Source: a virus (lineage: Duplodnaviria; Heunggongvirae; Uroviricota; Caudoviricetes). From it: a stretch of 64,000 bases of DNA. The notes below the pieces were generated by a model. It saw only the letters and a list, made by a program, of their open reading frames with translations. It was not told where the DNA came from and made no database searches. The stretch is taken from positions 51,539 to 115,538 of IMG/VR virus record IMGVR_UViG_3300026078_000021. One strand, written 5' to 3'. Position numbers and translations under genes: made by a program. The first letter of the stretch is position 1. Each line of letters begins with the position of its first letter. Below are positions 21,781 through 61,125 of the stretch, piece after piece.

Positions 21781-21884
21781 GTGCCCGTGCGGGCCCGCGT
21801 AGGGCCCGTGCGCGTGCCTGGGGATGCGAGCGGGCCCACCTACCCGTGTGGGTCGGTGGGCCCGTGTGGCGCGCCGTGTGTGGC

Positions 21885-22292: not shown

Positions 22293-22302
22293 GATCGTTT
22301 CC

Positions 22303-22506: not shown

Positions 22507-22521
22507 GGCTGGTCTCGCTTT

Positions 22522-22746: not shown

Positions 22747-22759
22747 GATCGTTTCCGTT

Positions 22760-23170: not shown

Positions 23171-23214
23171 GATCGTTTCCTGTCTGTCGCTCCGTACGAT
23201 GACTGTATTACTGG

Positions 23215-23984: not shown

Positions 23985-24063
23985 GGTTTGCTCCGGTCGG
24001 TTGGTTCGGTGGGAGTGTCCGCGCGCGCTACTTCGATGCTGTCCGCGCGGACTGGTGTGTGGG

Positions 24064-24528: not shown

Positions 24529-24587
24529 CGGAGTTCCGTTCTGTTGGGTTGGGCTGGCAGACAGAATCGTCTCGCGCGCACTCCACC

Positions 24588-24598
24588 GTGTCAAGCCT
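24588..24598 (-). promoter_or_regulatory. conserved promoter motif AGGCTTGACAC (class 1)
   Basis: Part of a 22-nt block conserved at 24578, 27326 and 29119; TTGACA -35-like on the minus strand upstream of the gene start at 24528. Confidence 0.5.
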
Positions 24599-24655
24599 AT
24601 GGAGCATGGCAAGTAGCGGGCCCATCCCCAAAACGGGCCCGCTACCGCCGGCGGA

Positions 24656-27277
24656 TCAACTCACATACGCGCGCGCGGCGCGCTCTACCTCGCTCTGCGC
24701 TGTCGAGTCGAACTCATCCGCGAACGCGCTCCACAGTTCGCCGTCGTCCGTTTCGTCATCCCGTGTCAGTCCCAAGTCACTCATGAGCGCATCCGTGTTG
24801 TAGTCGCCCGACCATTCACCCGTCGGTGCGTAGGGCATGGTGTCCATGATCACGGGGTCGCCGTTGTCGATACCGTCGATTACCTTCTGTGCGTGCTCGG
24901 CGCTGCCGAACTCATACCAGGTAGCGGCACTCTCACCCTTCTGTGCGCCGATCGTCCGGGCGATCATGAGCGCGCACTGCCACCGAACGGCACCTAGCGG
25001 CTTGCCAAGGTCGTTCGCCTTACCGCGCATCCGGTCACGGAACCGCTCTACTCCCGTTTGCGCTTCCGAGTAGCGGTTCCCGCACTGCGCCATGACTGCG
25101 TCAAGGTCGCGCGCCATGATCGCCCGATATAGCGCTTCGGTACCTGCGAACGTGCCCAGCTCGTCCGCGTACGCGTGGACGGGCCGTTCGGTGGCGCATT
25201 GCGCGTACGGCTTATCGTGTTCGGCGCACTCGCCAGTCTGGCGCGCGGCGTACTCGGCGTGCTCGGCAGCGTCCGCGATGAATCCCGCGATATGGAGAGC
25301 GGCGCGCGCAGCGTCGAAGTGCGCGGCAGCGCGGTAGTCGGTCCCTGCCGCTAGTACCTCGCGCGCCGAGTTGATCACGTAGTAACCCCAGCGTGTCTCA
25401 TCCGCTGATCCCGGGTGACGCGTGTTGCCGTTGGAGGTGTCGACGGTTTCGAGTGGCCACACGGCTAGGTCTACATGGAAGTTCACCCGGAAGATTGCGC
25501 GCGTGTCGGGAACGGCGACCGCGCGTGTGTGGGTGTCGACCTTACCCGCATAGGTCACATAGTACCGGGCGCAGCGCTTGCACACGGTGTCGAGTGACCA
25601 GGTTCCGTCCGGGTGTTCGATCATGATTAGCTCGGTTCCGAGTTGCTTGCCGTGCCCAACGGTGGCGCAGTGCTCCCCAGCATTCGCAGCGAACCATTCG
25701 GCCGTGTGCTCTGCGCGCGCGTCCGAGTCCTCAGCGTCAGCGTCCGCAGACCATGCGCGAACGGTGGCGTCCGTCGCAGGTTGCCCACCGCTTCCCGCGA
25801 GTAGTTCCCGTTCGAACGGGAGCAACGGCGCGCCGTTGTCCGGTTCGGTGGGTCCGTCCGGTTCGGCCGAAGTGCCGTCGGTACCGTCGGGGGTGTCGGT
25901 AGGCATGTGCTCGGTGCCCGTGCATCCACTACCGTCGCAGACACCCCCCGGGCAGTGCCATGCGGTTTCGAACACGATTCCGGAGCCGCTACCCGGGCAG
26001 TCCGGGCCACCGTTCGCGCCGCATTCGACGCAGTAGTTCTCCGTACGCGTGTCGGAAACCATGATCGTGATTCCACAGCATACGCAAGCCGCGTAACCCG
26101 ACGTGCTGACGGGCGCAGTCTCGGCGGGGGTGTCGGTGCTCTCCGACGTGCTGACGGGTGCAGCGTCCCCGGGCATGACGCGATTGAGCCGGTATCGATC
26201 GTGTCCTGCCATGCTGTACGGGACCGTGTCCCATCCGGAGCACGCGAGCGCGTCACGGATGGACTTGACGCGTTGCGGACTGAGTTCTTTGTGGCAGTGG
26301 AGGATCATCGTTGCGCCGTTTTCAATCAGCGTGACCCACACGTAACCGATGCTGCCGCGCGCGCCGATATCGTCGCTACTGGCGATGATCGCTAATACGG
26401 CCGGAATGCCACCCATACTCACGGTGCGCGTGCTAACGCCATTGACTAGGGTCGCATGCGGGAACGGGAAACCGGAGTTGATCAGTGCTGCGCGAACGGC
26501 AGCGTACCGGTTCGCTGCGTATTCGCTGTGCACGGTTGGATTCTTCCGGTAGGTTCCCGTTTCCCGGAAGTCATGCCATGCGGGCCCGTCGGTGCTCGCG
26601 ACGGTTGCCGTTTCATCGTCTGACACGGGGGTGAATGACTCGCGGAAGACACGGTGTGGGATGTGCGAGGTTTCCCCGTGTGTCTCACTGGTCAGGGCCA
26701 CGGCAGCGTCCGAGTGTCCCGTGACGTAGTAAAGGTCACGTGTGTTGGCGTTCCGGTACACGGTGGGGTGTCCGTTGCCGCAGCATCCGGCCCATGGGTT
26801 CCACGGGTGATGGAAGTACTCGCCAGTCCACGGGTCACGGATGCAACAGTCCGTCCGATCGTCCATGATTTCGGCGACCGTGTCCCAGTAGTTTTCGTCT
26901 ACCGAGTAGCACACCGTGTAAACGGTTCCGGGTGTCTCTTCACCTTCGAACGCGCGGCTCTGCGCGTAGTCATTGAGTGCGGCGCGAATCTTCCCGGCAA
27001 CGTTGCTCGCTTCCGGAAGGCGACCGCCGTACACGGCCACCCGGACGCGCGAACCATCCTGGGTCACGGTGCGCGTGTCGAGGTGGACGCGCGTTGTGTC
27101 TTCCGTGACGATCACAACGGTTTCGTGTTCGGCCACGGGAAAGTTTTCAGCGATCCAGTCCCCTTCGGTCGCGCGCTCCCATGCGCCGAGAAACTTGCGC
27201 GTTCCGGCAGCGTTGAGGGCCGGCAGTCCGCGCGCGTTGAGTGCCTGGCGGATGCCGTTGACGGTTGCGTTTCGCAT
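24656..27277 (-). CDS. large hypothetical protein (~870 aa) with several CxxC clusters
   Basis: Single long ORF trimmed to Met 27277 (MRNATVNGIRQALNARGLP...). No recognisable catalytic motif. Confidence 0.5.
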   Translation of the reverse strand: MRNATVNGIRQALNARGLPALNAAGTRKFLGAWERATEGDWIAENFPVAEHETVVIVTEDTTRVHLDTRTVTQDGSRVRVAVYGGRLPEASNVAGKIRAALNDYAQSRAFEGEETPGTVYTVCYSVDENYWDTVAEIMDDRTDCCIRDPWTGEYFHHPWNPWAGCCGNGHPTVYRNANTRDLYYVTGHSDAAVALTSETHGETSHIPHRVFRESFTPVSDDETATVASTDGPAWHDFRETGTYRKNPTVHSEYAANRYAAVRAALINSGFPFPHATLVNGVSTRTVSMGGIPAVLAIIASSDDIGARGSIGYVWVTLIENGATMILHCHKELSPQRVKSIRDALACSGWDTVPYSMAGHDRYRLNRVMPGDAAPVSTSESTDTPAETAPVSTSGYAACVCCGITIMVSDTRTENYCVECGANGGPDCPGSGSGIVFETAWHCPGGVCDGSGCTGTEHMPTDTPDGTDGTSAEPDGPTEPDNGAPLLPFERELLAGSGGQPATDATVRAWSADADAEDSDARAEHTAEWFAANAGEHCATVGHGKQLGTELIMIEHPDGTWSLDTVCKRCARYYVTYAGKVDTHTRAVAVPDTRAIFRVNFHVDLAVWPLETVDTSNGNTRHPGSADETRWGYYVINSAREVLAAGTDYRAAAHFDAARAALHIAGFIADAAEHAEYAARQTGECAEHDKPYAQCATERPVHAYADELGTFAGTEALYRAIMARDLDAVMAQCGNRYSEAQTGVERFRDRMRGKANDLGKPLGAVRWQCALMIARTIGAQKGESAATWYEFGSAEHAQKVIDGIDNGDPVIMDTMPYAPTGEWSGDYNTDALMSDLGLTRDDETDDGELWSAFADEFDSTAQSEVERAARAYVS

Positions 27278-27335
27278 GGTGTGGTCTCCGTTCGGTGGGT
27301 TGTGTACTGAGAGCAGCATTGCACAGCACTCCACC

Positions 27336-27346
27336 GTGTCAAGCCT
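27336..27346 (-). promoter_or_regulatory. conserved promoter motif AGGCTTGACAC (class 1)
   Basis: Same 22-nt block as at 24578; upstream of the large-gene start. Confidence 0.5.
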
Positions 27347-27378
27347 ATAGAGTGTGTGATGTTACCGAACCGTGATGT

Positions 27379-27624
27379 CTAGTCGCACGTGTTGCTGAAG
27401 AAACTCGGGTCACCTGGCGCGCCGTACAGCTCAAACCCGACGTTGTGGCACGGTCGACCGATCACGAAACCAGCGTTCAAACCCTGGTACGTGTGGACCG
27501 GCGGGAACACCCGCGCCACACTCGCAGCGCTCCCGCTTGTGACCGTACGCACCACCGAACTTGCCACCATGGCGAGCACTGCGAGCACTGCCACCGCGAA
27601 CACTGCGCTAACAACCTTGCCCAT
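27379..27624 (-). CDS. small secreted or membrane-anchored protein
   Basis: N-terminal signal/TM segment (VVSAVFAVAVLAVLAMVASS). Confidence 0.45.
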   Translation of the reverse strand: MGKVVSAVFAVAVLAVLAMVASSVVRTVTSGSAASVARVFPPVHTYQGLNAGFVIGRPCHNVGFELYGAPGDPSFFSNTCD

Positions 27625-27713
27625 GACTACCTACCTTCGTTGTGTGACTGCCAGTCAGCCACCCATTCCCGACTACCGACCGGAGCCGGTAGCCAGGCAA
27701 GGGTGTCCGCGCG

Positions 27714-28217
27714 TCAGTATGAGCTGTGCAACGCGCAACGCAGCGCGTCACGGTTCGCGCGCACCCGCCGGCCTATAGCGACCGTGTCAGCCGTAGTCGG
27801 ATGCGACCGGTACCGGTTGCCGTTCACGGCAAGGTACGTGCACATGTCACGGATCAGCGTGCGATCGTCCGCGTGTGACCAGCCGCGCGCGCCGTACCGG
27901 ATCGGCGCGTAACACCCGTTGCACAGATAGTCGGGCCGGTCTTCCGTGATCTTCCCGTCTGCGCCGAGTGTGAGCGTGCACGCTTCGACCATGGGATGCG
28001 CGATGGAATACCGCTTACCGTCGCACCATTCGCGTACGAAGATCGGATAGAGACGCATCACGCTGCCCGTGTACGGCGCGGCGGGTACGGTGCGCACGGG
28101 GACGAGCGGCTTGCCGGTCGCAGCGTCGATGCTGCCGAGTTCGATAAGCCGCGCGCTGCCCGTACGGATGCGCCGTTCAAACTCTCGGCGCGCGGTTTTG
28201 ACGTCAGGCGCGTACAT
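27714..28217 (-). CDS. hypothetical protein
   Basis: 167 aa. Confidence 0.45.
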   Translation of the reverse strand: MYAPDVKTARREFERRIRTGSARLIELGSIDAATGKPLVPVRTVPAAPYTGSVMRLYPIFVREWCDGKRYSIAHPMVEACTLTLGADGKITEDRPDYLCNGCYAPIRYGARGWSHADDRTLIRDMCTYLAVNGNRYRSHPTTADTVAIGRRVRANRDALRCALHSSY

Positions 28218-28356
28218 GTAGCCGTAACCGTCGTATCCGAGTGCGGACGGTTGGCCCGGCTCATTGGAAATGCAACACGGCGAACATTGCTGGCTCCGTT
28301 TCGTTTGACAACCGACCGGTTACCGCGTGTGCGAGACACACGGCCCGGACGCGTGA

Positions 28357-29073
28357 TCAGACGTGCGTGAGAACCGCGATTCCGTCCGGTCGGACGTACG
28401 CGTTCCATTCGTTCGGTGGCCAGTCGAATGAGTCGACGCAATCGGCGCAAAGGTTGTCACCTTCCCGCCAGTCGGAAGCCTGGGCGGTAATCCACACGTT
28501 GGCGAACCGGTCGCAGTTTGCGTCGTATGTTCCGGGGGTGAATACCTGCCCGTAACGGCCACAGTTCGCGCACAGTGTGTCGGTTGCGCCGTTGTGTGGA
28601 CAGGGCCCGTAGTGACCGTGGCATGCGTAGTGGCGCGCGTCGTTTCCCTGGAGCATTCCCCTTAGTCGCGCGTGATCTAGTTCGCGTGTGAGCGCGTCTG
28701 CGAGTGTGCGCGTGCGGACGGAAATACTGGGCCGTTCGTATGCGTGAACCTTGCTCCTATCGCGTCCCAACCGGTCGTATTCCGGCAGCGTGTAGGTCCG
28801 CGCGGGGATGGTCCAACCGTTCGCGTTGCGCACGGGTGACTCATGCTGTTTGTCGGTGCGCATGTTGGGCACACGGTGCGGTTCTGCGCCGAGTAGCAGA
28901 CCAGCGGCGCGCGCAGTGCGTAGCGCGTACGTGATGCGTTCCGCCAGTTTTTGGGTTGGCACGGTGAACAGTGCGCGTTCCGGTTCCACTGAGTTCAGCA
29001 TGCGGAACACGGTCGGGATGCGGCGGGCCCTGCCCGTGTCGTATGGGGTCCACCATTGGTAAAGGTCAGTCAT
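28357..29073 (-). CDS. hypothetical Cys-rich protein
   Basis: Trimmed to Met 29073 with GGAAACGATCATGA context (MTDLYQWWTPYDTG...). Confidence 0.45.
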   Translation of the reverse strand: MTDLYQWWTPYDTGRARRIPTVFRMLNSVEPERALFTVPTQKLAERITYALRTARAAGLLLGAEPHRVPNMRTDKQHESPVRNANGWTIPARTYTLPEYDRLGRDRSKVHAYERPSISVRTRTLADALTRELDHARLRGMLQGNDARHYACHGHYGPCPHNGATDTLCANCGRYGQVFTPGTYDANCDRFANVWITAQASDWREGDNLCADCVDSFDWPPNEWNAYVRPDGIAVLTHV

Positions 29074-29128
29074 GATCGTTTCCTGCCGGTCGGTGGGGTG
29101 TCCACCAATCATGTCGCTTTGCTCCACC

Positions 29129-29139
29129 GTGTCAAGCCT
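29129..29139 (-). promoter_or_regulatory. conserved promoter motif AGGCTTGACAC (class 1)
   Basis: Third copy of the 22-nt block; upstream of the gene start at 29073. Confidence 0.5.
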
Positions 29140-29750
29140 ATCCGGCAAAGGATCTCCGGACAGTCCACCTGGGCCGGTCGCTACCGGCCCGGATACCGCG
29201 CGCATACCCGCCGGCAGCGCCATACCTTGCCAGCTCACGCGTGCGGGCCCTATTCTCAGACCCTGGAAAGCGCACTCGGCAGGCAATACGCCGGTACTCG
29301 ACCGTTGACATACGGTGCTGAGTGCCAGTGTGTTGACTCGTGCGTGATCTTGGCCCGTGCGCTGATTCTCGCGCGCACGGGCCCGGGGCCACCCCCCCGC
29401 CGGCCCGCCGCGCGCCCGCACGTGGGGGAGAGGATCGGCCAGCCGGCGCGGTCGGGCGCATTGACCATGAAAGCGCTAACGGGCCGCGCACGCCGGCTAC
29501 GAAGGTGACGGCAGTGTGTGAGGCACGGGCGCGACCTCGGCGGGGGATGTGACACGCCGTTGCGCTAGGTGCGGCGGGAGTATCGCGGCACGTTGCCGAT
29601 GTAAGTGCGCGGAGCTGGGCCGGCGCGTGGGGGTGGCACCGGCACGGGCGGGTAAGCGAAAGCGTGCGCAGCGGTTCGGCCGGAGTGAACTAATAGCGTT
29701 TGTTCTTGTTAGCGTTTAGCGTTTCCTTCACAGCCGCGCGGTGTAATAGC

Positions 29751-29850
29751 TTTTTACCTTTCTACCATTATTTAAATAGCGAGCGCTAGCGCTAGCGCTA
29801 GGGCCCTTTTTTGGTTTTACTATTGCGCCCGTATGGGGTCCGTATGGGGG
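29751..29850. repeat. ~85-bp AT-rich element with an (AGCGCT)x3 palindrome + GGGCCC + T-run; copy 1 of 2
   Basis: atagctttttacct...aaatagcgagcgctagcgctagcgctagggcccttttttgg...attgcgcccgtatgg. About 90% identical to the copy at 38326-38406. Sharply AT-rich in a 70%-GC context. Could act as a bidirectional terminator-like hairpin. Confidence 0.65.
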
Positions 29851-29911
29851 TTCGCCCCCGGAAACGCCAGCGCCCCCGACCGGTGATGGTCGGGGGCGCT
29901 GCGTTGGACGG

Positions 29912-38896: not shown

Positions 38897-39874
38897 TTAG
38901 CCGAGCGCCGCCGCGACCAGGTGCGCCGGGTCGCGCTCCAGGCGGCGCGCGGCCCGCTGGTAGCGGCGGGTGGTGCGCGGGTCGGCGTGTCCCATCGCGT
39001 CCTGTAGATCGTCGAGATCCGCGCCGCGCTCGGTCGCGATCGTGGCGAAGGTGTGGCGCAGCGCGTGCGGGGTCACGGCGGTGGGGTCGGGCAGCCCGGC
39101 CTCCTGTGCGAGGCGGCGCACGAGGCGGAACACCTCGCTTCGGTCGACGGCCTTGCCGCCGGAGGTGACGAACACCAGCCCTGTCAGGTCCTTGACACGT
39201 ACCCCGGCTTGTTTGGCGCGCGCCTTGAGGTACACGTCCAGTACGGTGCCGGTAGCGACGGGCACGGCGCGGGCGATCCTTTTGCCGCCCTTGCCGCGTA
39301 CGGTGACGGTGCGCATGCCCTTGGCGGTGCTGAATGCGTCGAGCGGGAGTTTGCACACCTCGCTGACTCGAATGCCCAGTTGCAGCATGAGGCGGACCAT
39401 GACGGCGTCGCGTAGGGCGTTGGGGGTTTCGCGCTGGTCGGCGTGCTCGATCAGGCGGCGGGCGGATGCCTCGTCGAGCCACGCGGTGGGGGAGTAGTCC
39501 CGGTCGACCTTGGGGCGTTGCGCGGCGGCGAACGGGTTGCGCTCGTGCTCGTCGCAGGCGATCAGGTGCCGGTACCAGGAGGAGACCGCCGCCATGCGCC
39601 GCGCGGCGCTGGCCTCGGACAGGGGCCGGGGGTTTGCGCGGGAGTCTTGGAGCCAGGCGCCGAACAGGTCGGCGTCGGGTTTGCGCGCGGTCAGCACGTG
39701 CACGCCGCGCTCGGCGCAGAACGCGCCCCAGGCGCGCAGGTCGCGGGCGTAGGCCTCGCGGGTGTTGGGGCGTTTGGTCAGCAGCCACGCGGCGGTGGCT
39801 TCGGCGATGGGGTCTTGGTCGCGGGTGTCGTAGGGGTGCAGGGCGGTGTTAGTGGTGGCGATGGTGGTGTTCAT
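38897..39874 (-). CDS. int: tyrosine-type site-specific recombinase/integrase (XerC/D-like)
   Basis: R...HxxR...Y catalytic residues: 'ALRDAVMVRLMLQLGIRVSE', 'HALRHTFAT', 'GHADPRTTRRY'. Confidence 0.85.
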   Translation of the reverse strand: MNTTIATTNTALHPYDTRDQDPIAEATAAWLLTKRPNTREAYARDLRAWGAFCAERGVHVLTARKPDADLFGAWLQDSRANPRPLSEASAARRMAAVSSWYRHLIACDEHERNPFAAAQRPKVDRDYSPTAWLDEASARRLIEHADQRETPNALRDAVMVRLMLQLGIRVSEVCKLPLDAFSTAKGMRTVTVRGKGGKRIARAVPVATGTVLDVYLKARAKQAGVRVKDLTGLVFVTSGGKAVDRSEVFRLVRRLAQEAGLPDPTAVTPHALRHTFATIATERGADLDDLQDAMGHADPRTTRRYQRAARRLERDPAHLVAAALG

Positions 39875-39916
39875 GGTGGGCTCCCCGGAAAACACAGTCA
39901 CGCGTCGCGCGCAACA

Positions 39917-40207: not shown

Positions 40208-40588
40208 CTACCCGCTGACGTACCAGCCTTTGCCGGTCACCGGGTAGAGCAGGCCCTCGCGCTCAAGGTCGTGCAGGACACGGCGCAACGTGGAACGCGT
40301 GACGTGCAACTGCGCCGCCCAGGCCAGTTCCGACGGCAACCTGGCGTGCGTGCCCTCAAGCGCGCGGGCCGCCGCCACCTGCTCGCGTACCTGCGCTTTG
40401 ATGCCCTCGGCGATTCTCACGAGTCCGCTCCGTCCGGCGCGGGCGCCCACACCACGGTCACGGGCCGGATCGCCTCCCACACCTCGCGGCTGGCCTCGTA
40501 CGCGCTGTCGAGTACCAGCCGGGTGTGGTGGCGTGCGCACTGCATGTACGGTCTGCGTTTGCGCGCCGGATTCAGTGCGATCTGCCAC
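40208..40588 (-). CDS. GntR-type winged-HTH regulator (start uncertain)
   Basis: 'LPSELAWAAQLHVTRSTLRRVLHDLEREGLLYPVTGKGWYV'. Confidence 0.55.
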   Translation of the reverse strand: MADRTESGAQTQTVHAVRTPPHPAGTRQRVRGQPRGVGGDPARDRGVGARAGRSGLVRIAEGIKAQVREQVAAARALEGTHARLPSELAWAAQLHVTRSTLRRVLHDLEREGLLYPVTGKGWYVSG

Positions 40589-41712: not shown

Positions 41713-43377
41713 TCACCCGTCCGCGCGCGCCTCCCAGGGCCAGCCGCAGGAGACACCCCGGTCCAGCAACGCCATGACCTGGAAACACTTGTCCGAGAAA
41801 CCGCCCAGCTCGAAGCGGCCCGTACGCGTGGAATCGATCTGCGTGTTCGCGTAGCCGGCCGTGTTCCAGGCGAACAGGTTGATGCCCGTCGGCACGATAT
41901 CCGAGAGGGTCTGGTTGTTGGACGCCGCGCGCCCCCACACCGCCGGGTAGTACGCCCACGAGCCCCTGCGCGCCGCCATCGTCTGCATGTCGGAGACGAC
42001 CACGATGCGGCGCAGCGGCGCACCCGAGCCCGTGTCCGGCGCGGCCTTCAGGACGGCGGCGACCGCCTCCAAAGCCTGCGTGCCGTGCCCGACCTCGCCG
42101 ACGCGGGCGCAGAACGCCTCCGTCTGCTTCAGGACACTGCCTCCCGCCGCCAGCTGGTGGTGGAAGAGGCCGTCGGCGAACCCGCACAGTGTCACATCGT
42201 TGCCCGCCGCCGCCAGCGCCACACCGAACAGCGCGCCGACGTCCACGTGCCGCACCACCGACTTACCCGACACCGGCTGCTGCATGGACGCGGAGGTGTC
42301 CACCAGGATCGCGGTGCGCCCCGGCAGCGATGGGATGTTCACGCAGGACAGGCGCAGCGCGATCTCCAGGGCGTGACCCCAGCGCAGAGAGGAGACCTGC
42401 CGGTACGCGGTGTAGAAACGGAACGGGAACTGGCGGGAGCGGCGGATGTCCTCCAGGTTTGTCAGCTTCGCGATCACCCGCTGCGCGGCGGCGTCGCTGA
42501 CCCCGGCCTCATCGAAATTACGCAGGTTACGCACCAGCGCCATCGCGCCCATCGACGGGATGATCGCCTCCCACGCCGCCTTGTCCATCGGGCCGAGACT
42601 GGAGAGCTGCTCCCAGGTCATGCCGGCCTTACGCAGCCGCTCTGGGTCGGCCAGGAAATAGGCGCGCCGGTCCTTCTCAGACATAACCATCGCGGCGCGG
42701 TACGCGCTCAGGGTCGGCAGGCGGTCCGTGACGCGCACCTGCTCGCGGTTCCAGCGCCGGTCGGCCAGGTAGTCGAACAGGTCGGCCTGCCACGGCCCGG
42801 CCGGGTACGGCTTAGCGAGGGCGACGGCGTCGATCTGCCGCCACAGCGAACCCACGCCGTCGTACTTGAGGGCGGCGCGCTCGTTGTACAGGCGGGTGAT
42901 CGCGTCGGCGACGCCGCGCTGCACCCCGCCGGGCAGCGAGCGGATGCCGGCGCGCGAACGCCAGTAGGCGATGAACTCGCACGGCTCGTCCGGGCGCGCC
43001 AGCGCGGAGTCGATCACCTTGCGGGTGGGGTGCGTCGCGGGCGCGGCGCCGGGCGCGCGGCGCGCCAGGGCGTATTCGGCTGCCGCGACGACGGACGCGG
43101 AGCGCATCCCGGCCTCGGTGCGCAGCCAGGGAATGAAAGCGGCCACCCAGTCCGGGTCGGTGCGCGCGACCGCACCGATCAGGCCACGGAAGCGCTGGTC
43201 GCGCTCGCCGGCCTTCTCGTAGAAGCTGTCCTCGCCGACCATGTTGGAGATGGCGAGCATGAACAGCTCGGAGCGCTCATCGCGCTTGTATGCCGTGTTG
43301 CCCTCATGGGTGAGGGCGGGGCCGGTGGTGGTGACCGGTCCGGTCACGCGCGGGCGAACGGAGGTGAACTTACCCAT
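41713..43377 (-). CDS. rsr: Ro60 orthologue (Rsr): TROVE domain plus C-terminal vWA/MIDAS domain
   Basis: 554 aa. TROVE-like N-terminal region and 'ILVDTSASM' (DxSxS MIDAS) in the C-terminal vWA domain. tRNA-like Y-RNA-type modules are immediately adjacent. Confidence 0.75.
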   Translation of the reverse strand: MGKFTSVRPRVTGPVTTTGPALTHEGNTAYKRDERSELFMLAISNMVGEDSFYEKAGERDQRFRGLIGAVARTDPDWVAAFIPWLRTEAGMRSASVVAAAEYALARRAPGAAPATHPTRKVIDSALARPDEPCEFIAYWRSRAGIRSLPGGVQRGVADAITRLYNERAALKYDGVGSLWRQIDAVALAKPYPAGPWQADLFDYLADRRWNREQVRVTDRLPTLSAYRAAMVMSEKDRRAYFLADPERLRKAGMTWEQLSSLGPMDKAAWEAIIPSMGAMALVRNLRNFDEAGVSDAAAQRVIAKLTNLEDIRRSRQFPFRFYTAYRQVSSLRWGHALEIALRLSCVNIPSLPGRTAILVDTSASMQQPVSGKSVVRHVDVGALFGVALAAAGNDVTLCGFADGLFHHQLAAGGSVLKQTEAFCARVGEVGHGTQALEAVAAVLKAAPDTGSGAPLRRIVVVSDMQTMAARRGSWAYYPAVWGRAASNNQTLSDIVPTGINLFAWNTAGYANTQIDSTRTGRFELGGFSDKCFQVMALLDRGVSCGWPWEARADG

Positions 43378-43399
43378 GGGTCGTCCTCGTGCAGGGGAA

Positions 43400-43540
43400 A
43401 CGATGGACGGGCCGACCCCGGTGCGCCTTCACGCGAGTGCCCATCGTCCTGGCTACGCTGCTCTACCGTTGAGCTACACGGCCGCGTGGCCGCGCATGGA
43501 TTCGAACCATGAACCAGCCGATTAACAGTCGGAAGTAGGC
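43400..43540 (-). ncRNA. Y-RNA-like ncRNA 1 (tRNA-like module at 43459-43533; retains a GUU anticodon stem-loop)
   Basis: Layout is D-arm (GCUCAACGGUAGAGC), acceptor 5' strand GGCCGUG, 4-nt loop, acceptor 3' strand CGCGGCC, T-arm CAUGG-UUCGAAU-CCAUG. The two halves of a tRNA-Asn-like sequence are permuted and the acceptor stem is closed by a loop. Confidence 0.5.
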
Positions 43541-43559
43541 CAGGGCTGCGCTTCGCGTG

Positions 43560-43700
43560 AAGGCGCTGTGGAGTTGTGCACAGGTTGGTTCGCGAGTGCC
43601 TAGGCGCGTAGGACACGTAGGCGCTCTATCCACTGAGCTACAAGGGCCACGTCGGGCCCCCGGCGGGATTCGAACCCGCGACCTCCCGCTCCCAAAGCGA
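43560..43700 (-). ncRNA. Y-RNA-like ncRNA 2 (tRNA-like module 43621-43679)
   Basis: D-arm GCUCAGUGGAUAGAGC, acceptor GCCCUUG/CGGGGGC closed by an 8-nt loop, T-arm GCGGG-UUCGAAU-CCCGC. Confidence 0.45.
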
Positions 43701-43759
43701 AGTAACCCACGCTATCGCTTCGCGAACCAACCTGTGTTCGGCCCGGCCGCGAGGCGACC

Positions 43760-43900
43760 GGTGACAACCGCACCATGAGAGACCGGCGAGTTCCAGCGAA
43801 CGAGGGGAGTGGAACTCTCATGCTCTACCAAATGAGCTATAAATGCGAAGTTAGTGCATTTAACTGGATTCGAACCGGTTACCTTGAGAAGGAACCCCGT
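43760..43900 (-). ncRNA. Y-RNA-like ncRNA 3 (tRNA-like module 43822-43880)
   Basis: D-arm GCUCAUUUGGUAGAGC, perfect 7-bp acceptor GCAUUUA/UAAAUGC closed by a 9-nt loop, T-arm ACCGG-UUCGAAU-CCAGU. Confidence 0.45.
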
Positions 43901-44033
43901 CCAGCGCTTCGCCGATCCATCACTATGCGGTTGTCAGGGTGCTGCGAGTGCCTGGTCACGGGGGTTTGGGCTCTCAATTCCCAAAGGATGGCTGAGAAGT
44001 ATCCCCCGCGTTCGCTTCGCGGCACCGCTCAAC

Positions 44034-44365
44034 CTACCCGCGAGCGCCACACCGTGCAAGCCTGTTGATTTGCTCATATGATAGCCCCGGCCGCGCGACG
44101 GCCCCCGCCACAGCCAGCGCACAGTCCGACCAGCCCGCCTCATAGCCCTGCCGGTACAACCCCTCGCCGTCCGTGAGGCCGTAGAGAAACAGGACGCTGA
44201 CGTTGCATGCCTGCGCGATCGCAAGCAGCTTGCCGGCGGGGGGCTCGTGCTGACCGCGCTCCCAGTTAGTCATCGTGGGGCTGCTCACGCCGACGCGCCG
44301 CGCCAGTTCCCGCTGACTGATGCCCGCCCCGCTTCGGGCGCGGGCGATGTTCCCACCCAGGCTCA
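44034..44365 (-). CDS. XRE-family HTH regulator (GTG start)
   Basis: 'ISQRELARRVGVSSPTMTNWERGQHEP'. Confidence 0.6.
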
Positions 44366-44602
44366 CGGCAGGACCACGTTGGGCACGGTGAACTCCTCGG
44401 CACCGCGCTCCAGCCACACCAGCAGCGAGAGCAGGCCGTCCGCGTCCGGGCAGCGCCCCTGTTTGATCCGCGTGATGGTGGAAGCGCTGACCCCGACCTG
44501 CGCGGCGACGTGTCTTAGCGTCACCCCTTGCTTGAACGCGCGCGCGAATATCGCGAGGAACAGCGCCTCGGTATCAAGACGATGAGTCGCCAACGTGCTC
44601 AT
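44363..44602 (-). CDS. XRE-family HTH regulator
   Basis: 'VTLRHVAAQVGVSASTITRIKQGR'; 79 aa. Confidence 0.6.
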   Translation of the reverse strand: MSTLATHRLDTEALFLAIFARAFKQGVTLRHVAAQVGVSASTITRIKQGRCPDADGLLSLLVWLERGAEEFTVPNVVLP

Positions 44603-44825
44603 ACGATAGCATCCATGCTGTTCGGCGCCACCGGCAGCAACATCGACTCCCAGTAGCCGATCAGCTCACGCAGCCGCTCCTGGAACGCCGGCTCACCACT
44701 GCGCGCCAGGATGTACCGCTCCACCGCCTCGCGGATGATCTGCGCCATAGGGCGGCCCTCCGCAAGCGCGAACGCCTCCAGCCGCGCGTACAAATGCCCG
44801 TCCAGGCGCACCGTGAGCACATGCA
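44599..44825 (-). CDS. ribbon-helix-helix (CopG/Arc-like) DNA-binding protein
   Basis: Met 44825; 'MHVLTVRLDGHLYARLEAFALAEGRPMAQIIREAVERYI'. Confidence 0.55.
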
Positions 44826-44944
44826 TGCGGGTCACGCGTTCCTCCCGGGAAACAGGGGCGGCCGAGCGCGACTTATATCCATTCGCGCCCGGCCTTGTAT
44901 GGGTCATTTTTCAAGTAACCGTTCACCCATGAACATCACGCCGA

Positions 44945-45045
44945 CGGCGTTTAAGGACAGGAATGAGGCTGAAAACGCGACGAGCTACCGACTGCTCCAC
45001 CCCGCCACGAAAGAGGCGGGGCCAGGGCTCGAACCTGGGACCTTC
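44945..45045 (-). ncRNA. Y-RNA-like ncRNA 4 (tRNA-like module 44979-45038)
   Basis: D-arm GAGCAGUCGGUAGCUC, acceptor GGCGGGG/CCCCGCC closed by an 8-nt loop, T-arm CCAGG-UUCGAGC-CCUGG. Confidence 0.45.
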
Positions 45046-45099
45046 GCGACATGACCTGTCCGGTCGATTCGGCGTGCGGTGCTGCTGCTGAGACCTAGA

Positions 45100-45200
45100 G
45101 CGAAACGCTGACCGGCCTGCCTTTCGGGCTGCCTCTACCAGTTGGGCTACCTCCGCACGCGTGCGGGGGGCAGGATTCGAACCTGCACTGATCGGCCTGA
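45100..45200 (-). ncRNA. Y-RNA-like ncRNA 5 (tRNA-like module 45131-45186)
   Basis: Degenerate D-arm GCCCAACUGGUAGAGG, acceptor GCGGAGG/CCCCCGC closed by a 6-nt loop, T-arm GCAGG-UUCGAAU-CCUGC. Confidence 0.4.
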
Positions 45201-45275
45201 CGTGAACGCTGAGCATGAGTCTCAAGCTTGCGCCCTGCGGGCGCGTCCCGGCGCTCAAACCGGGAGTCTAGGGGT

Positions 45276-51679: not shown

Positions 51680-52666
51680 CTATTTCGCTGCGATCGCCAG
51701 GCCGCCGGAGCCGCCGAGCGAGAGGGTGGTGATGTTGCCCGGGAGCGCTTTGAGTTCGTCGATGATCGCGCAGGACGGGCAGGCGTTGTAGCCCTGCTGT
51801 TTCGCCTGGTTGGCTTGCGCCTGGGCCTGGGCCTGGGCGACTTCGGCCTGGGCTTCGGAGACCTTCGCGTAGGCGGCCTGCGCGGCGTTGATCGCGTCTT
51901 GGACGTTGCCGGGCGGGTCGGCGTGGGTGAAGGTGAAGTGCACGCCGGTCAGGTAGCCGCCGCCGAGCTGCGCGGTGATGTCCGCCGGCAGGGTGTTGTT
52001 GATGGCCTGCTGGATGGCGGTGTAGTTGCCGTTGGTGTTGGGGTGCCCGGCCGCGATCGCGGCGACCTGGCTGGGGTCCTTGACCAGGGCGCAGCCGGCG
52101 TCCAGCTGCGCGCAGGTGACGGTGGCCACCTGCTGGCGCAGGTCGTTCTCCAGCACCGGGCGGATCATGGTGTTGACGAACGCGTTCCAGCCGTCCGCGC
52201 CGTCGTAGGCGTGGTAGGCGTGCCCGTCCCAGGTGTACTCGCGGGTGCCGAACTTGTCGTCGAACTTCCCGAGCGTGGGGTGGTCGAGGTCCAGCTGGTA
52301 GTAGAGGGTGCCTTGGATCTGCATCTGCACCCCGTCGCTGGTGGAGGTGGCGATCGTGTCGAAGCCGAGTTTGCCGCCGTTGCCCGGGTCGGCGGTGATC
52401 GAGTAGTCCTGTTGTTGCGCGGGGTAGACGTGCTCGGTGGAGTACAGGCCGGTGAAGGAGACACGGCTGGCCGGGTCGAGGAAGCCGCGCACGTTGCTGT
52501 CGGAGAACACTCCGCCGTTGCGCACGACGGCGATGTGCCCGGCGTCCACGTTGTTCCACGCGGACATGAACGGGATGACGACGACGATCAGCAGGATCAG
52601 GCCGATGACGGCGCCGGCGAGGCAGCCGAAGGCTTTGGCGGGGGAGACCTGTGTGGAGCTGGTCAT
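51680..52666 (-). CDS. SPFH/band-7 (prohibitin/HflK-like) domain membrane protein
   Basis: Met 52666 followed by a TM helix; 'AGHIAVVRNGGVFSD' is an SPFH-core-like segment; Ala/Gln-rich coiled-coil tail. Confidence 0.55.
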   Translation of the reverse strand: MTSSTQVSPAKAFGCLAGAVIGLILLIVVVIPFMSAWNNVDAGHIAVVRNGGVFSDSNVRGFLDPASRVSFTGLYSTEHVYPAQQQDYSITADPGNGGKLGFDTIATSTSDGVQMQIQGTLYYQLDLDHPTLGKFDDKFGTREYTWDGHAYHAYDGADGWNAFVNTMIRPVLENDLRQQVATVTCAQLDAGCALVKDPSQVAAIAAGHPNTNGNYTAIQQAINNTLPADITAQLGGGYLTGVHFTFTHADPPGNVQDAINAAQAAYAKVSEAQAEVAQAQAQAQANQAKQQGYNACPSCAIIDELKALPGNITTLSLGGSGGLAIAAK

Positions 52667-53178
52667 GGTGAGGGCGCGTCCTTGGTCCATGAGGGTGGGA
52701 GGGTGCCGATCGGCCCGGCGTGGCGTGAGTTGGCGTGCATGCACGCGACCGCGTAGAAGCGGCCCCATTTCTCACGTGTGCTGTGCCCGTCGTAGGTCGC
52801 GCCGCGCGGCGCGACCACGCTCGCGATCGGTCCGGTGAACAGGTCCAGGTCGCGTTCGTGGATGTGGAAGCTGACCTGGCCGGCGGGGGAGACCGGCAGC
52901 TCCAGGATCAGTACCTGGTAGCCGGGGGTGGCCTGGTCCTGTGCCCACCAGGCGGGGTATTGGGTGGCGAGTAACGCCAGCAGCCGGGCGCGGTCGCGGT
53001 AGGCCAGGTCGCGTTCCTTGCGCGCGGTCAGCGTGCGTGCGTCGGCGTCGCCGAGCGCGACGGCGACCTGCTCGGTGAACAAGGTGTTGACTTTCCGCAT
53101 GAACACGGGTGTATTCAGCGCGGCGTCGAGTGCGTCAACCATGTCGCGTACGAGTTGCTGGGTGGGCGGTGCGGCCAT
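52663..53178 (-). CDS. hypothetical protein
   Basis: 171 aa. Confidence 0.45.
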   Translation of the reverse strand: MAAPPTQQLVRDMVDALDAALNTPVFMRKVNTLFTEQVAVALGDADARTLTARKERDLAYRDRARLLALLATQYPAWWAQDQATPGYQVLILELPVSPAGQVSFHIHERDLDLFTGPIASVVAPRGATYDGHSTREKWGRFYAVACMHANSRHAGPIGTLPPSWTKDAPSP

Positions 53179-60996: not shown

Positions 60997-61069
60997 CGCT
61001 CTCCCGGCAGGACTCGAACCTGCGACCCTCGCATTAACAGTGCGGTGCTCTGCCCACTGAGCTACGGAA
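60997..61069 (-). tRNA. tRNA-Asn(GTT)
   Basis: U1-A72; loop CTGTTAA; G73. Confidence 0.75.
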
Positions 61070-61125
61070 GACCGGCGCCAGGCGCATGGGGTGCCTGGCG
61101 TGGCGGGGCACGCGCGGCACCTGCG

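What the first reader, a model, noticed from the sequence alone, without database searches (positions are those of the whole stretch)
41713..45200. Ro60 (TROVE-vWA) gene followed by five tRNA-like modules whose acceptor stems are closed by a loop
Directly downstream of the Ro60/Rsr orthologue (41713-43377) sit three tRNA-like units (43459-43533, 43621-43679, 43822-43880). Two more follow (44979-45038, 45131-45186), separated from the first three by small HTH/RHH genes. In every unit the plus-strand order is D-arm(rc), acceptor 5' strand(rc), a 4-9 nt loop, acceptor 3' strand(rc), then T-arm(rc). The two acceptor strands pair with each other at 6-7 of 7 positions (7/7 counting G-U wobbles in units 2-4). 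No canonical cloverleaf can be drawn. On the minus-strand RNA this gives T-arm, then an acceptor stem capped by a loop, then the D-arm. That is the permuted tRNA-like module described for bacterial YrlA-type Y RNAs that bind Ro60. Unit 1 can even be reassembled into a perfect 73-nt tRNA-Asn(GUU) if circularly permuted between positions 26 and 27. The tandem array of five such RNAs interleaved with regulators is unusual and suggests a phage-encoded Ro60 RNP system.
Basis: partly seen in the sequence, partly recalled or inferred. Interest (0 to 1): 0.85.

Follow-up and report, generated by a model that had tools for sequence, protein, structure and literature searches.

The report
Phage Ro60 gene with six Y RNAs
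A phage-like element carries a Ro60 (Rsr) gene preceded by six small Y RNA genes, five with a tRNA-shaped head, which is a large but otherwise ordinary example of the known bacterial and phage Ro60/YrlA system.

Summary
On the minus strand, 5' of a Ro60/Rsr gene (41713-43377), lie five modules in the order T-arm, loop-closed 7-bp acceptor stem, D-arm. All five hit Rfam YrlA on that strand only, but below its gathering score. The three helices and the 15:48 Levitt pair covary across 24 homologues.

Units 1-4 sit on terminal stems (14-27 bp in units 1-3) carrying a CGAAG Ro-binding-type motif. Unit 5 is weak. I found a sixth, short Y RNA without a tRNA head (43938-44026). It is conserved in the closest relatives.

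This is the published YrlA/Rsr system (Chen 2014), already reported in 22 phages. Among about 95 related loci, arrays of 2-5 modules directly upstream of rsr are common, and split arrays also occur. So the array is at the top of the range but is not a new kind. The RNAs lie upstream of rsr, not downstream.

One point may be under-described. Units 1 and 2, and about half of 125 related modules, carry a covarying anticodon-arm mimic: a 5-bp stem and a 7-nt loop with U33 and R37. In-silico permutation yields cloverleaf tRNA-Asn(GUU) and tRNA-Pro(UGG). The same feature makes ARAGORN, and probably some GenBank records, call false tRNAs.

Function is inferred: the Y RNAs tether or gate Ro60.

The parts
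41713..43377 (-). rsr: Ro60/Rsr orthologue, 554 aa, with a TROVE ring and a vWA domain carrying a DxSxS MIDAS motif
   Evidence: Pfam TROVE 1.3e-17, VWA_2 8e-4. PHROG 850, 7e-46. PDB phiLo Ro60 9KOP/9L5Y, 1e-27. D360/S362/S364 invariant in an alignment of 8 phage Rsr proteins. GC3 0.92, a real gene.
43423..43566 (-). 14-bp terminal stem GCGCCUUCACGCGA/UCGCGUGAAGGCGC, CGCGAAGCG motif at 43549-43557, anticodon-arm mimic at 43517-43533 (loop CUGUUAA), tRNA-like core at 43460-43511.
   Evidence: Rfam YrlA 38.3 bits, E 2.4e-6. The fold constrained to the tRNA-like core (-83.3 kcal/mol) is about equal to the MFE (-83.4). CM R1 64.7 bits. Permuted form gives ARAGORN tRNA-Asn(GUU), 73 nt.
43579..43736 (-). 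Y RNA 2 (unit 2), YrlA type, about 158 nt. 17-bp perfect terminal stem, CGCGAAGCG at 43716-43724, anticodon-arm mimic at 43685-43701 (loop UUUGGGA), core at 43623-43679.
   Evidence: Rfam YrlA 34.4 bits. Folds. CM R1 67.4 bits. Permuted form gives tRNA-Pro(UGG). The ARAGORN tRNA-Pro call at 43654-43727 is an artefact of this arm plus the T-arm.
43745..43759 (-). Spacer hairpin GGUCGCCUCGCGGCC (6 bp, loop CUC) between Y RNA 3 and Y RNA 2. Possibly a processing or termination signal.
   Evidence: Exact 15-mer conserved at the equivalent spacer in L010, L016, L017 and L018, while the flanking Y-RNA stems differ.
43763..43935 (-). Y RNA 3 (unit 3), YrlA type, about 173 nt. Terminal stem of about 27 bp, GGCGAAGCG at 43905-43913 (a strict GNCGAAG match), small 4-bp hairpin in place of an anticodon arm, A+U-rich core at 43822-43879.
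   Evidence: Rfam YrlA full-length hit, 30.2 bits, E 5e-4. Folds. Duplex -38.2 kcal/mol. CM R1 60.5 bits.
43938..44026 (-). Y RNA 6 (new here): short YrlB-like Y RNA, about 89 nt, with no T/acceptor/D head. It has CGCGAAGCG (44013-44021), GGCACUCGC (43944-43952) and an internal AUACUUC motif. It starts 8 nt after the HTH gene's stop codon.
   Evidence: Fold. Motif pairs in register. Orthologous short RNA (GCCGCGAAGCG...CUCGCAGCACCC) at the head of the array in L010, L016, L017 and L018.
44034..44835 (-). Three translationally coupled small DNA-binding genes: Arc-like RHH (44599-44835), HTH (44363-44602) and Cro/CI-type HTH (44034-44366). Probably a phage regulatory cassette inserted in the array, not a conserved part of the Ro system.
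   Evidence: Pfam RHH_1, HTH_31, HTH_3. PHROG repressor families. Gene calls on the identical metagenome contig L096. No homologue next to rsr in 95 loci.
44955..45061 (-). Y RNA 4 (unit 4), compact YrlA type, about 107 nt (outer stem may extend to 44937-45076). GGACAGG/CCUGUCC stem, CGCGAAG motif directly abutting the variable loop, core at 44982-45038, D stem inverted (GAGC/GCUC).
   Evidence: Rfam YrlA full-length hit, 28.4 bits, E 1.8e-3. Constrained fold equals the MFE, -62.3 kcal/mol. CM R1 64.3 bits.
45089..45227 (-). Y RNA 5 (unit 5), the weakest member. Core at 45131-45186 with acceptor 6/7 and D stem 3/4. No clear Ro-binding motif (GCCGAU). Boundaries uncertain.
   Evidence: Rfam YrlA 20.1 bits, E 0.45. 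CM R1 55.2 bits. Fold. The whole 368-nt block is not more stable than shuffles, z = -0.41.

Best explanation
This is a Ro60 (Rsr) ribonucleoprotein locus of the known YrlA/Y-RNA kind. It sits on a temperate-phage-like actinobacterial mobile element recovered from a metagenome.

One strand encodes, in order:
- Y RNA 5 and Y RNA 4
- a repressor-like RHH-HTH-HTH cassette
- a short Y RNA (Y6)
- Y RNA 3, Y RNA 2 and Y RNA 1
- rsr

Shown here:
- Five RNAs carry a covarying, tRNA-shaped head: T-arm, 7-bp acceptor stem closed by a loop, D-arm, and a 15:48 tertiary pair.
- Four RNAs (Y1, Y2, Y3, Y6) share a conserved CGAAG-containing bulged helix on a terminal stem. Unit 4 keeps the CGCGAAG motif.
- Two heads also carry an anticodon-arm mimic.

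Inferred from D. radiodurans, S. Typhimurium, M. smegmatis and Thermus phage phiLo:
- The RNAs are cut out of one or two precursors.
- The terminal helix binds the outer face of the Ro60 ring.
- The tRNA-like head recruits a tRNA-binding effector or an exoribonuclease such as host PNPase. The RNP then gates or targets structured or damaged RNA for decay or repair during infection or lysogeny.
- Because every acceptor stem is 7 bp plus a 5-bp T stem, as in M. smegmatis YrlA, RNase P cleavage in the acceptor loop followed by CCA addition is plausible.
- Several heads with different acceptor stems and 'anticodons' would give Ro60 several specificities.
For: - Protein identity.
- Rfam YrlA hits on the rsr strand only, for all five units.
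- 24-sequence alignment: 98.7% of cells paired, all 7 acceptor pairs covary, slid controls 31-46%.
- Levitt pair 15:48 covaries in 24/24 (C:G 14, U:A 9, A:U 1).
- Terminal stems differ in sequence but stay complementary in the window, L010 and L016-18.
- RNAalifold on 14 GUU-class homologues independently predicts terminal stem, middle stem, T, acceptor and D helices. 21 of 32 pairs have compensatory changes.
- CGCGAAGCG and GGCACUCGC occur four times as ordered pairs within 600 nt.
- 317 Rsr relatives exist in IMG/VR. The 80 sampled loci mostly have 1-4 such modules directly upstream on the same strand.
- Literature for family definition, Rsr binding, RNase P/CCA processing, the tRNA fold and the phage Ro60-Yrl-PNPase complex: PMC4201824, bioRxiv 10.1101/312249, PMC12135203.
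Against: - No expression, binding or processing data exist for this element.
- All Rfam scores are below the curated threshold, and unit 5 is marginal (E 0.45).
- Unit 5 has no recognisable Ro-binding motif and a weak terminal stem. The block holding units 4 and 5 is no more stable than shuffled sequence.
- The strict GNCGAAN0-1G motif is met only by unit 3. The others read CGCGAAG.
- No consensus promoter or terminator was found.
- No PNPase, RtcB, CCA-adding enzyme or RNA ligase is encoded in the window, so the partner is unknown.
- The window shows no recognisable virion genes, so 'phage' rests on relatives, tRNA load, the integrase and repressor-like genes.
Confidence: 0.8

Rival explanations
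1. tRNA decoys. The heads, especially those with an anticodon arm (Asn-GUU-like, Pro-UGG-like), act mainly as competitive inhibitors or sponges for host tRNA-targeting defence nucleases or other anticodon-recognising enzymes. They protect the phage's own 31 tRNAs and the host's tRNAs. Ro60 only stabilises them or hands cleaved products to a nuclease. This is not exclusive of the best explanation.
For: - An anticodon-arm signature is present in 66 of 125 related modules against about 11 expected. U33 is in 62/66 and R37 in 64/66. The stem covaries.
- Recurrent loop classes: GUU 14, GCU 12, CUG 6, UCU 5.
- Hughes et al. 2020 proposed that the YrlA tRNA-like domain could be a competitive inhibitor of an anticodon nuclease (PMC7790460).
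- The element invests heavily in tRNAs.
Against: - Units 3-5 and about half of the relatives lack the arm.
- The conserved first three stem nucleotides (UUC) belong to a family-wide UACUUC motif. The hairpin may therefore serve another conserved role.
- Published work reads it as a class II-type long variable arm.
- No nuclease target is known.
Confidence: 0.25
2. Genuine circularly permuted tRNA genes. Units 1 and 2 are processed (ends ligated, acceptor loop opened by RNase P/Z) into functional tRNA-Asn and tRNA-Pro used in translation.
For: - In-silico permutation at 26/27 gives complete 73-nt cloverleaves.
- Acceptor stems are 7 bp.
- M. smegmatis YrlA is opened by RNase P and receives CCA.
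- Wang et al. note the resemblance to algal permuted pre-tRNAs.
Against: - The window already encodes canonical tRNA-Asn(GUU) at 60998-61071 and tRNA-Pro(UGG) at 2426-2500.
- Bacteria are not known to have the splicing endonuclease needed, and no RNA ligase is in the window.
- Discriminators (A73 in unit 1, C73 in unit 2) do not match what I recall of the Asn (G73) and Pro (A73) identity sets. This is from memory and was not tested.
- Three of the five units have no anticodon arm.
- The long conserved Ro-binding stem would be pointless.
Confidence: 0.03
3. Decayed remnants of a tandem tRNA array (pseudo-tRNAs) that happen to lie near rsr and have no function.
For: - Tandem-tRNA junctions in the same window score up to 52 bits with my covariance model, so T-arm-then-D-arm order alone is not diagnostic.
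- ARAGORN calls on truncated constructs suggest a faint 5' tRNA remnant: 14/66 against 4.2 +/- 1.9 for shuffles.
Against: - In tandem tRNAs the 3' acceptor strand of one gene and the 5' strand of the next are not complementary. Here they pair 6-7 of 7 in 5 of 5 units, and all seven pairs covary in homologues.
- Terminal stems and the CGAAG helix are conserved.
- The arrangement recurs upstream of rsr in most of the 95 related loci examined.
Confidence: 0.03
4. Processing punctuation. The tRNA-like heads serve chiefly as RNase P/RNase Z entry sites that cut a long polycistronic transcript into separate mRNAs (regulator cassette, rsr), as tRNAs do in other operons. Ro60 binding is secondary.
For: - Modules flank the RHH-HTH-HTH cassette on both sides and precede rsr. 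All are on one strand with short spacers.
- Acceptor stems of 7 bp suit RNase P.
- In M. smegmatis YrlA and YrlB are processed from one precursor.
- A conserved spacer hairpin exists.
Against: - This does not explain the conserved Ro-binding helix, the short head-less Y RNA, or contiguous arrays of 2-5 modules with no genes between them in relatives.
Confidence: 0.1

Closest known systems
YrlA RNAs (Rfam RF02553; Chen et al. 2014, RNA 20:1715), especially Mycobacterium smegmatis YrlA/YrlB and those of mycobacteriophages
   Same: - Encoded 5' of rsr on the same strand.
- Order is T-arm, loop-closed acceptor stem, D-arm.
- tRNA tertiary nucleotides and a covarying Levitt pair.
- CGAA-type motif near the 5' end on a terminal stem.
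- Conserved YUAY (here UACUUC) before a stem-loop upstream of the T-arm.
- 7-bp acceptor stem, as in the M. smegmatis RNA that RNase P cleaves.
- A companion short Y RNA (YrlB-like).
- Several RNAs per locus.
   Different: - Six RNAs in one locus: five with heads and one without.
- The array is split by a three-gene repressor-like cassette.
- Scores are below Rfam's gathering threshold.
- The motif reads CGCGAAG rather than GNCGAAG in four RNAs.
- The 3' strand of the Ro-binding helix (GGCACUCGC) is also conserved, whereas Chen et al. found only the 5' strand recognisable.
- The upstream hairpin of units 1 and 2 has full anticodon-arm geometry, not the class II variable-arm form proposed in the literature.
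Thermus phage phiLo Ro60 with Yrl1/Yrl2 (NAR 2025, PMC12135203; PDB 9KOP, 9L5Y)
   Same: - Phage-encoded Ro60 with Y-RNA-like genes immediately upstream that contain a CGAA motif.
- It is the closest solved structure to this Rsr (E 1e-27).
- It shows that a phage Ro60-Y RNA pair can assemble with host PNPase.
   Different: - phiLo has two Yrls, described as stem-bulge-stem RNAs. No tRNA-like head is mentioned in the text I searched (the terms 'tRNA-like' and 'YrlA' have zero occurrences).
- Protein identity to the window Rsr is only about 26%.
Deinococcus radiodurans Rsr / Yrn1 / PNPase (RYPER)
   Same: A Ro60 ring bound to a Y RNA whose distal module tethers an exoribonuclease. This is the only bacterial case with a demonstrated mechanism, and I borrow that mechanism here.
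   Different: Yrn1 has only a T-arm-like element in a different orientation, and its helix is more metazoan-like. No PNPase gene or contact is shown for the window element.
Circularly permuted tRNA genes of Cyanidioschyzon merolae and some archaea
   Same: The 3' half precedes the 5' half, the acceptor stem is initially closed by a loop, and the ends pair as an extended stem.
   Different: Those are matured by a splicing endonuclease and ligase into working tRNAs. Here the break falls at 26/27 with a long Ro-binding stem, no such enzymes are known or encoded, and canonical isoacceptors are already present.

Membership tests
YrlA-type bacterial/phage Y RNA (Chen et al. 2014; Rfam RF02553) | Encoded within about 4 kb of an rsr/Ro60 gene on the same DNA strand | tested here: met
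   All six RNAs lie 46-1850 nt 5' of rsr on the minus strand.
YrlA-type bacterial/phage Y RNA (Chen et al. 2014; Rfam RF02553) | tRNA-like domain in the order T stem-loop, closed acceptor stem-loop, D stem-loop | tested here: met
   Found in five units. Across 24 homologues 98.7% of cells are paired and 13 of 16 pairs show compensatory change. Y6 lacks the domain, so it is YrlB-like, not YrlA.
YrlA-type bacterial/phage Y RNA (Chen et al. 2014; Rfam RF02553) | tRNA tertiary-interaction nucleotides, including a covarying Levitt pair (15:48), U8-A14 and G18G19/T-loop | tested here: met
   The 15:48 pair covaries in 24/24, including all five window units: A:U twice, G:C twice, U:A once. UA (UG in unit 4) after the acceptor, GG in the D loop and UUCGA in the T loop are read directly.
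YrlA-type bacterial/phage Y RNA (Chen et al. 2014; Rfam RF02553) | GNCGAAN0-1G motif near the 5' end (the presumed Rsr contact) | tested here: inconclusive
   Unit 3 has GGCGAAG, a strict match. Units 1, 2, 4 and Y6 have CGCGAAG, where the first G is replaced within a base-paired position. Unit 5 has only GCCGAU.
YrlA-type bacterial/phage Y RNA (Chen et al. 2014; Rfam RF02553) | Score at or above Rfam's gathering threshold (69 bits) | tested here: not met
   Window units score 20.1-38.3 bits. The same holds for every actinophage and actinobacterial relative tested (47 bits or less). The model appears poorly tuned to this clade. E-values for four units run from 2e-6 to 2e-3.
YrlA-type bacterial/phage Y RNA (Chen et al. 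2014; Rfam RF02553) | Bound by Rsr in vivo; carries tRNA modifications (psi55, D); RNase P/CCA processing where the acceptor stem is 7 bp | not testable with these tools
   Only the prerequisite, a 7-bp acceptor plus a 5-bp T stem in all five units, can be read from sequence.
Ro60/Rsr (TROVE + vWA) protein | TROVE/HEAT-repeat ring domain followed by a vWA domain with a MIDAS DxSxS motif | tested here: met
   TROVE 64.6 bits against a cut-off of 23. VWA_2 is only 20.4 bits, below its cut-off of 27. D360-x-S362-x-S364 is invariant in 8 phage Rsr proteins. There is full-length similarity to annotated 'Ro-like RNA binding proteins' and to phiLo Ro60.
Canonical tRNA gene | Contiguous cloverleaf scoring above the Rfam tRNA threshold | tested here: not met
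   The only tRNA-model hit is partial: 43491-43557, 22.9 bits, below the threshold of 29, covering model positions 4-67. The ARAGORN tRNA-Pro at 43654-43727 re-uses the YrlA T-arm and acceptor 3' strand. That strand pairs 7/7 with the downstream strand.
Circularly permuted tRNA gene (algal/archaeal type) | Bulge-helix-bulge junction processed by a splicing endonuclease and ligase to give a mature tRNA | not tested
   Permutation yields cloverleaves for units 1 and 2. I did not look for a BHB motif. No ligase or endonuclease family was found in the window.

The most novel reading that the evidence does not exclude
The stem-loop 5' of the T-arm in units 1 and 2, and in roughly half of the actinophage and actinobacterial YrlAs examined, is a true anticodon-arm mimic and not a class II-type variable arm. 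These Y RNAs would then be complete, circularly permuted tRNA look-alikes (Asn-GUU, Ser-GCU-like, Gln-CUG, Arg-UCU, Pro-UGG ...) grafted at position 26/27 onto a Ro60-binding stem.

A phage carrying several of them would display a panel of specific tRNA 'identities' on Ro60. They could bait or inhibit anticodon-directed host nucleases or modification enzymes, or direct Ro60 and an exonuclease to particular damaged tRNAs.
Probability: 0.3. Interest if true: 0.7.

Novelty: new member of a known kind. Interest (0 to 1): 0.42.

Why it matters
This finding confirms, on an unsequenced-host mobile element, that phage Ro60 genes travel with multi-gene Y RNA arrays. It adds a well-delimited six-RNA example with clear boundaries, which is convenient for cloning and for Rsr pull-downs.

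The cross-locus by-product is more useful than the locus itself.
- A covarying anticodon-arm mimic sits in about half of these RNAs.
- A family-wide UACUUC motif is present.
- A 3'-strand partner of the Ro-binding helix is conserved.

These features give concrete handles on the long-open question of what the tRNA-like head of bacterial Y RNAs recognises.

There is also a practical warning. tRNA finders mis-call these RNAs, and several GenBank actinophage 'tRNA' features next to Ro genes are probably YrlA fragments.

Tried and rejected
- **Rfam at gathering threshold on the whole window.** It returned only tRNAs and no YrlA. I had to drop to E-value mode.
- **Megablast of the locus against INPHARED phages.** The only hit was a 97-nt match in the Ro gene of Gordonia phage VanLee, so there is no close sequenced relative. 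Protein-level hits in phages and plasmids are at most 42% identical.
- **My own covariance model R1.** It does not separate YrlA cores from tandem-tRNA junctions (window junctions reach 52 bits). I replaced it with a structural scan plus an ARAGORN filter.
- **Synteny test of the HTH/RHH/DUF7873 neighbours against 95 loci.** There were no hits, so I rejected the idea that the regulators belong to the Ro system.
- **Sigma-70 promoter and intrinsic terminator scan.** Nothing useful turned up on the minus strand.
- **Search for RtcB, a CCA-adding enzyme or RNA ligases among 51 predicted proteins.** None was found.
- **The idea that five modules is unique.** Rejected: L023 has 4-5 and L001 has 4.
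- **The idea that a split array is unique.** Rejected: L032 and L039 are also split.
- **Literature gaps.** The reviews by Sim & Wolin 2018 and Sim et al. 2020, and the supplementary tables of Chen 2014, are not held. I therefore could not check whether the anticodon-like nature of the 'V' arm, or the maximum array size, has been stated in print.
- **RNAalifold on 14 GUU-class RNAs.** It did not itself draw the anticodon hairpin because MAFFT placed a gap there. I tested the hairpin separately on a gap-free alignment selected by motif position only.

Full report
**What is there**

The window is 67.6% G+C, and almost every gene is on the minus strand. It carries:
- 31 tRNA genes in two clusters
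- a tyrosine integrase
- a C5 DNA methylase
- HU, Lsr2, HNH, GntR and LuxR-type genes
- an RNB-type exoribonuclease

The exact Rsr protein occurs on metagenome contigs (ENA ERZ27252105, Logan SRR5508097). Nothing in INPHARED is close at the DNA level. I read the source as an actinobacterial temperate-phage-like element. No virion genes were recognised in these 64 kb, so 'phage' stays an inference.

**The protein**

ORF 41713-43377 on the minus strand is a Ro60/Rsr orthologue.
- Pfam TROVE scores 1.3e-17, with a weak VWA_2 match.
- PHROG 850 scores 7e-46.
- The best PDB match is Thermus phage phiLo Ro60, E 1e-27.
- Identity to 'Ro-like RNA binding proteins' of Streptomyces, Gordonia and Arthrobacter phages is 35-38%.
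- Identity reaches 58-62% to three IMG/VR contigs and to an Actinacidiphila genome contig.
- The MIDAS DxSxS residues are invariant in an alignment of eight phage proteins.

Because the gene is on the minus strand, the RNAs at higher coordinates lie upstream of it.

**The five tRNA-like units**

Reading the minus strand, each unit has, in order:
- a 4-5-nt variable-loop-like connector
- a 5-bp T stem with a UUCGA(A/G)(U/C) loop
- a 7-nt strand, a 4-9-nt loop, and the complementary 7-nt strand
- two nucleotides (UA, or UG in unit 4)
- a 3-4-bp D stem with an A-R/Y...GG...A loop

The support comes from several directions.
- Rfam's YrlA model hits all five on this strand only: 38.3, 34.4, 30.2, 28.4 and 20.1 bits. 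All are under the gathering score of 69. E-values run from 2.4e-6 to 1.8e-3 for four units and 0.45 for the fifth.
- I aligned the five with 19 cores from relatives. 98.7% of cells pair in the T/acceptor/D structure, against 31-46% when the partner is slid.
- All seven acceptor pairs show compensatory changes.
- The tertiary Levitt pair 15:48 covaries in 24 of 24 sequences.

A covariance model built from this alignment scores the units at 55-67 bits. It also scores tandem-tRNA junctions in the window at up to 52 bits, which is the false-positive class Chen et al. warned about. A stricter structural scan with an ARAGORN filter leaves exactly these five in 64 kb on both strands.

**The Y-RNA bodies**

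Units 1, 2 and 3 each sit on a long terminal stem of 14, 17 and about 27 bp. Each stem leads into a conserved bulged helix, 5' CGCGAAGCG (GGCGAAGCG in unit 3) and 3' GGCACUCGC (GGAACUCGC in unit 3). For unit 1 the fold with the tRNA core enforced is within 0.1 kcal/mol of the unconstrained minimum. The 583-nt block folds far better than shuffles, z = -6.4.

The same motif pair brackets a fourth RNA at 43938-44026. It is not a chance match. L010, L016, L017 and L018, which hold the closest Rsr relatives, each begin their array with an orthologous short RNA followed by two RNAs of about 175 nt.

Unit 4 is a compact version. It has a GGACAGG/CCUGUCC stem, and the CGCGA/UCGCG helix directly abuts the tRNA core. 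Unit 5 has a recognisable core but only a GCCGAU motif and a weak stem. The block holding units 4 and 5 is not more stable than shuffled sequence.

RNAalifold on 14 homologues of unit 1 independently recovers the terminal stem, middle stem, T, acceptor and D helices. 21 of 32 pairs have compensatory changes.

**Comparison with what is known**

This is the YrlA family as defined by Chen et al. 2014. That work found 355 RNAs in 254 bacteria and 22 phages, on the same strand within 4 kb of rsr. The family has T, closed-acceptor and D arms, a GNCGAA motif, a conserved YUAY, and a less conserved 'V' stem-loop before the T-arm. In M. smegmatis the 7-bp acceptor is opened by RNase P and receives CCA, and a second RNA, YrlB, comes from the same precursor. 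The crystal structure shows a true tRNA fold, and its authors describe YrlAs as resembling circularly permuted tRNAs. A phage Ro60 with two upstream Y-like RNAs has been shown to assemble with host PNPase.

**Is the array unusual?**

IMG/VR holds 317 relatives of this Rsr. I examined 80 of them plus 15 phage and genome loci. With the strict scan, 42 loci have one module within 1.1 kb upstream of rsr, 29 have two, 7 have three and 1 has four. By the covariance model, L023 has four strong hits and one weak one in tandem with no tRNA genes, and L001 has four.

Arrays separated from rsr by unrelated genes also occur. L032 has an AAA ATPase in between, and L039 has three small ORFs.

The RHH-HTH-HTH cassette in the window consists of Arc-like and Cro/CI-like repressor families, translationally coupled. 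It has no counterpart beside rsr in any of the 95 loci. Five heads plus one short RNA is the largest set I saw, but it lies on a continuum.

**The anticodon-arm mimic**

Unit 1 has UCCGA-CUGUUAA-UCGGC, followed by the 5-nt connector UGGUU and then the T stem. Unit 2 has UUCGC-UUUGGGA-GCGGG followed by AGGUC. Joining the two halves in silico at 26/27 gives ARAGORN cloverleaves: tRNA-Asn(GUU) and tRNA-Pro(UGG), each 73 nt.

The feature is not peculiar to this window.
- Among 125 modules upstream of rsr, the best 5-bp hairpin ending 4-6 nt before the T stem has a 7-nt loop in 66. Shuffles give about 11.
- Those loops have Y32 in 58, U33 in 62, R37 in 64 and A38 in 60.
- A UACUUC-type motif is present in 113 of 125 modules. 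Its UUC starts 21-22 nt before the T stem in 72 of them.
- On a gap-free alignment of 36 modules chosen only by that motif position, the hairpin is 89% paired, against 34-60% when slid. Two pairs covary on both sides in 13-14 sequences.
- Loop classes recur: GUU 14, GCU 12, CUG 6, UCU 5, UGG 3.

The literature I could read calls this element a variable arm or a long class II-type variable loop, and states that YrlA 'lacks the anticodon loop'. That statement was made for the Salmonella RNA, which has only a short loop there. Whether the actinobacterial hairpin stacks as an anticodon arm or projects as a variable arm cannot be decided from sequence. I could not read the two reviews that might discuss it.

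A practical consequence is that ARAGORN calls a 'tRNA' over the T-arm of 39 of the 125 modules, including tRNA-Pro at 43654-43727 here. GenBank tRNA features beside the Ro genes of phages VanLee, GiJojo and Frankenweenie overlap YrlA cores in the same way.

**Mechanism**

Shown here:
- the sequence architecture
- its conservation and covariation
- its fixed position and strand relative to rsr

Inferred from experimentally studied relatives:
- excision of the RNAs from precursors
- binding of the CGAAG helix to the outer surface of the Ro60 ring
- use of the tRNA-like head to recruit a tRNA-binding effector or exoribonuclease, so that Ro60 gates or targets structured or damaged RNAs

The partner is unknown. 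The window encodes no PNPase, RtcB, ligase or CCA-adding enzyme. It does encode an RNB-dsRBD exoribonuclease 23 kb away.

The decoy idea, inhibition of anticodon nucleases, has been floated for Salmonella YrlA. The anticodon-arm mimic makes it more attractive, but it remains untested.

I consider functional permuted tRNAs very unlikely. Canonical Asn and Pro tRNAs are present, three units lack the arm, and the Ro-binding stem is conserved. I consider decayed tRNA remnants very unlikely as well, because the acceptor pairs, terminal stems and Levitt pair all covary.

**Verdict**

The finding is a new, large member of a known kind. The claims of unusual arrangement are weakened by the comparison with relatives. 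The anticodon-arm mimic is the one aspect that may add to current knowledge.

Noticed in passing
window 18713-20521 (-): A 602-aa protein with an RNB domain (RNase II/R-type 3'-5' exoribonuclease, Pfam 1e-38) and a C-terminal dsRNA-binding motif (4e-8). Bacterial Ro60/Y RNA works with exoribonucleases, so this could be the element's own effector.
   Followed up: partly
window 51680-52768 (-): An SPFH/Band-7 protein (Pfam 2e-14). Band-7 proteins with a tRNA-like RNA ('b7a-tRNA') are described as a functional counterpart of Rsr+YrlA (cited in bioRxiv 10.1101/312249). No tRNA-like module was found beside it here.
   Followed up: partly
window 43745-43759 (-); L010 1272-1286; L016 3780-3794; L017 3765-3779; L018 3772-3786: The 15-nt spacer GGUCGCCUCGCGGCC (6-bp hairpin, CUC loop) is exactly conserved between consecutive Y RNAs, although the neighbouring Y-RNA stems have diverged. 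It may be a processing or termination signal.
   Followed up: partly
L003 4626-4697 (Gordonia phage VanLee gene 125); L005 4688-4762 (Streptomyces phage GiJojo gene 29); L009 4673-4763 (Frankenweenie gene 148): GenBank 'tRNA-Arg(tct)', 'tRNA-Arg(cct)' and a 91-nt 'tRNA-Pro(tgg)' directly upstream of Ro genes overlap YrlA cores. VanLee's scores 26.9 bits, below the Rfam tRNA threshold of 29. They look like mis-annotated Y RNA parts.
   Followed up: partly
window 43500-43540, 43690-43710, 43990-44000 (-), and 113 of 125 related modules: A near-invariant U(A/C)CUUC motif precedes the hairpin upstream of the T-arm and also occurs in the head-less short Y RNA. It extends the published 'YUAY'. Its partner and role are unknown.
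   Followed up: partly
L008 4626-4789 (Gordonia phage Rabbitrun): A YrlA whose acceptor loop carries an insertion of about 60 nt containing a second T-arm-like hairpin (GGGGUUCGAAUCCCC).
   Followed up: no
window 38897-39901, 40208-40588 and 44034-44835 (-): A tyrosine integrase, a small GntR-type gene and the Arc/Cro/CI-like cassette surround rsr. The Ro/Y RNA module seems to sit in a lysogeny-control region and might be expressed from the prophage.
   Followed up: no
66 related modules (truncated constructs): ARAGORN still calls a full cloverleaf in 14 of 66 real sequences, against 4.2 +/- 1.9 when the part 5' of the anticodon-like arm is shuffled. This is a faint trace of a 5' acceptor/D remnant, consistent with the proposed origin of YrlA from dimeric tRNA transcripts.
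   Followed up: partly
window 15000-29900: Predicted genes here (including the RNB nuclease and ORFs of 892 and 354 aa) fall below the GC3 > 0.80 filter that nearly all other genes pass. This suggests a compositionally distinct, possibly acquired segment.
   Followed up: no
window 43822-43879 (-): The core of unit 3 is only 41% G+C (acceptor stem UAAAUGC/GCAUUUA) in a 68% G+C element, unlike the other four cores at 60-70%.
   Followed up: no
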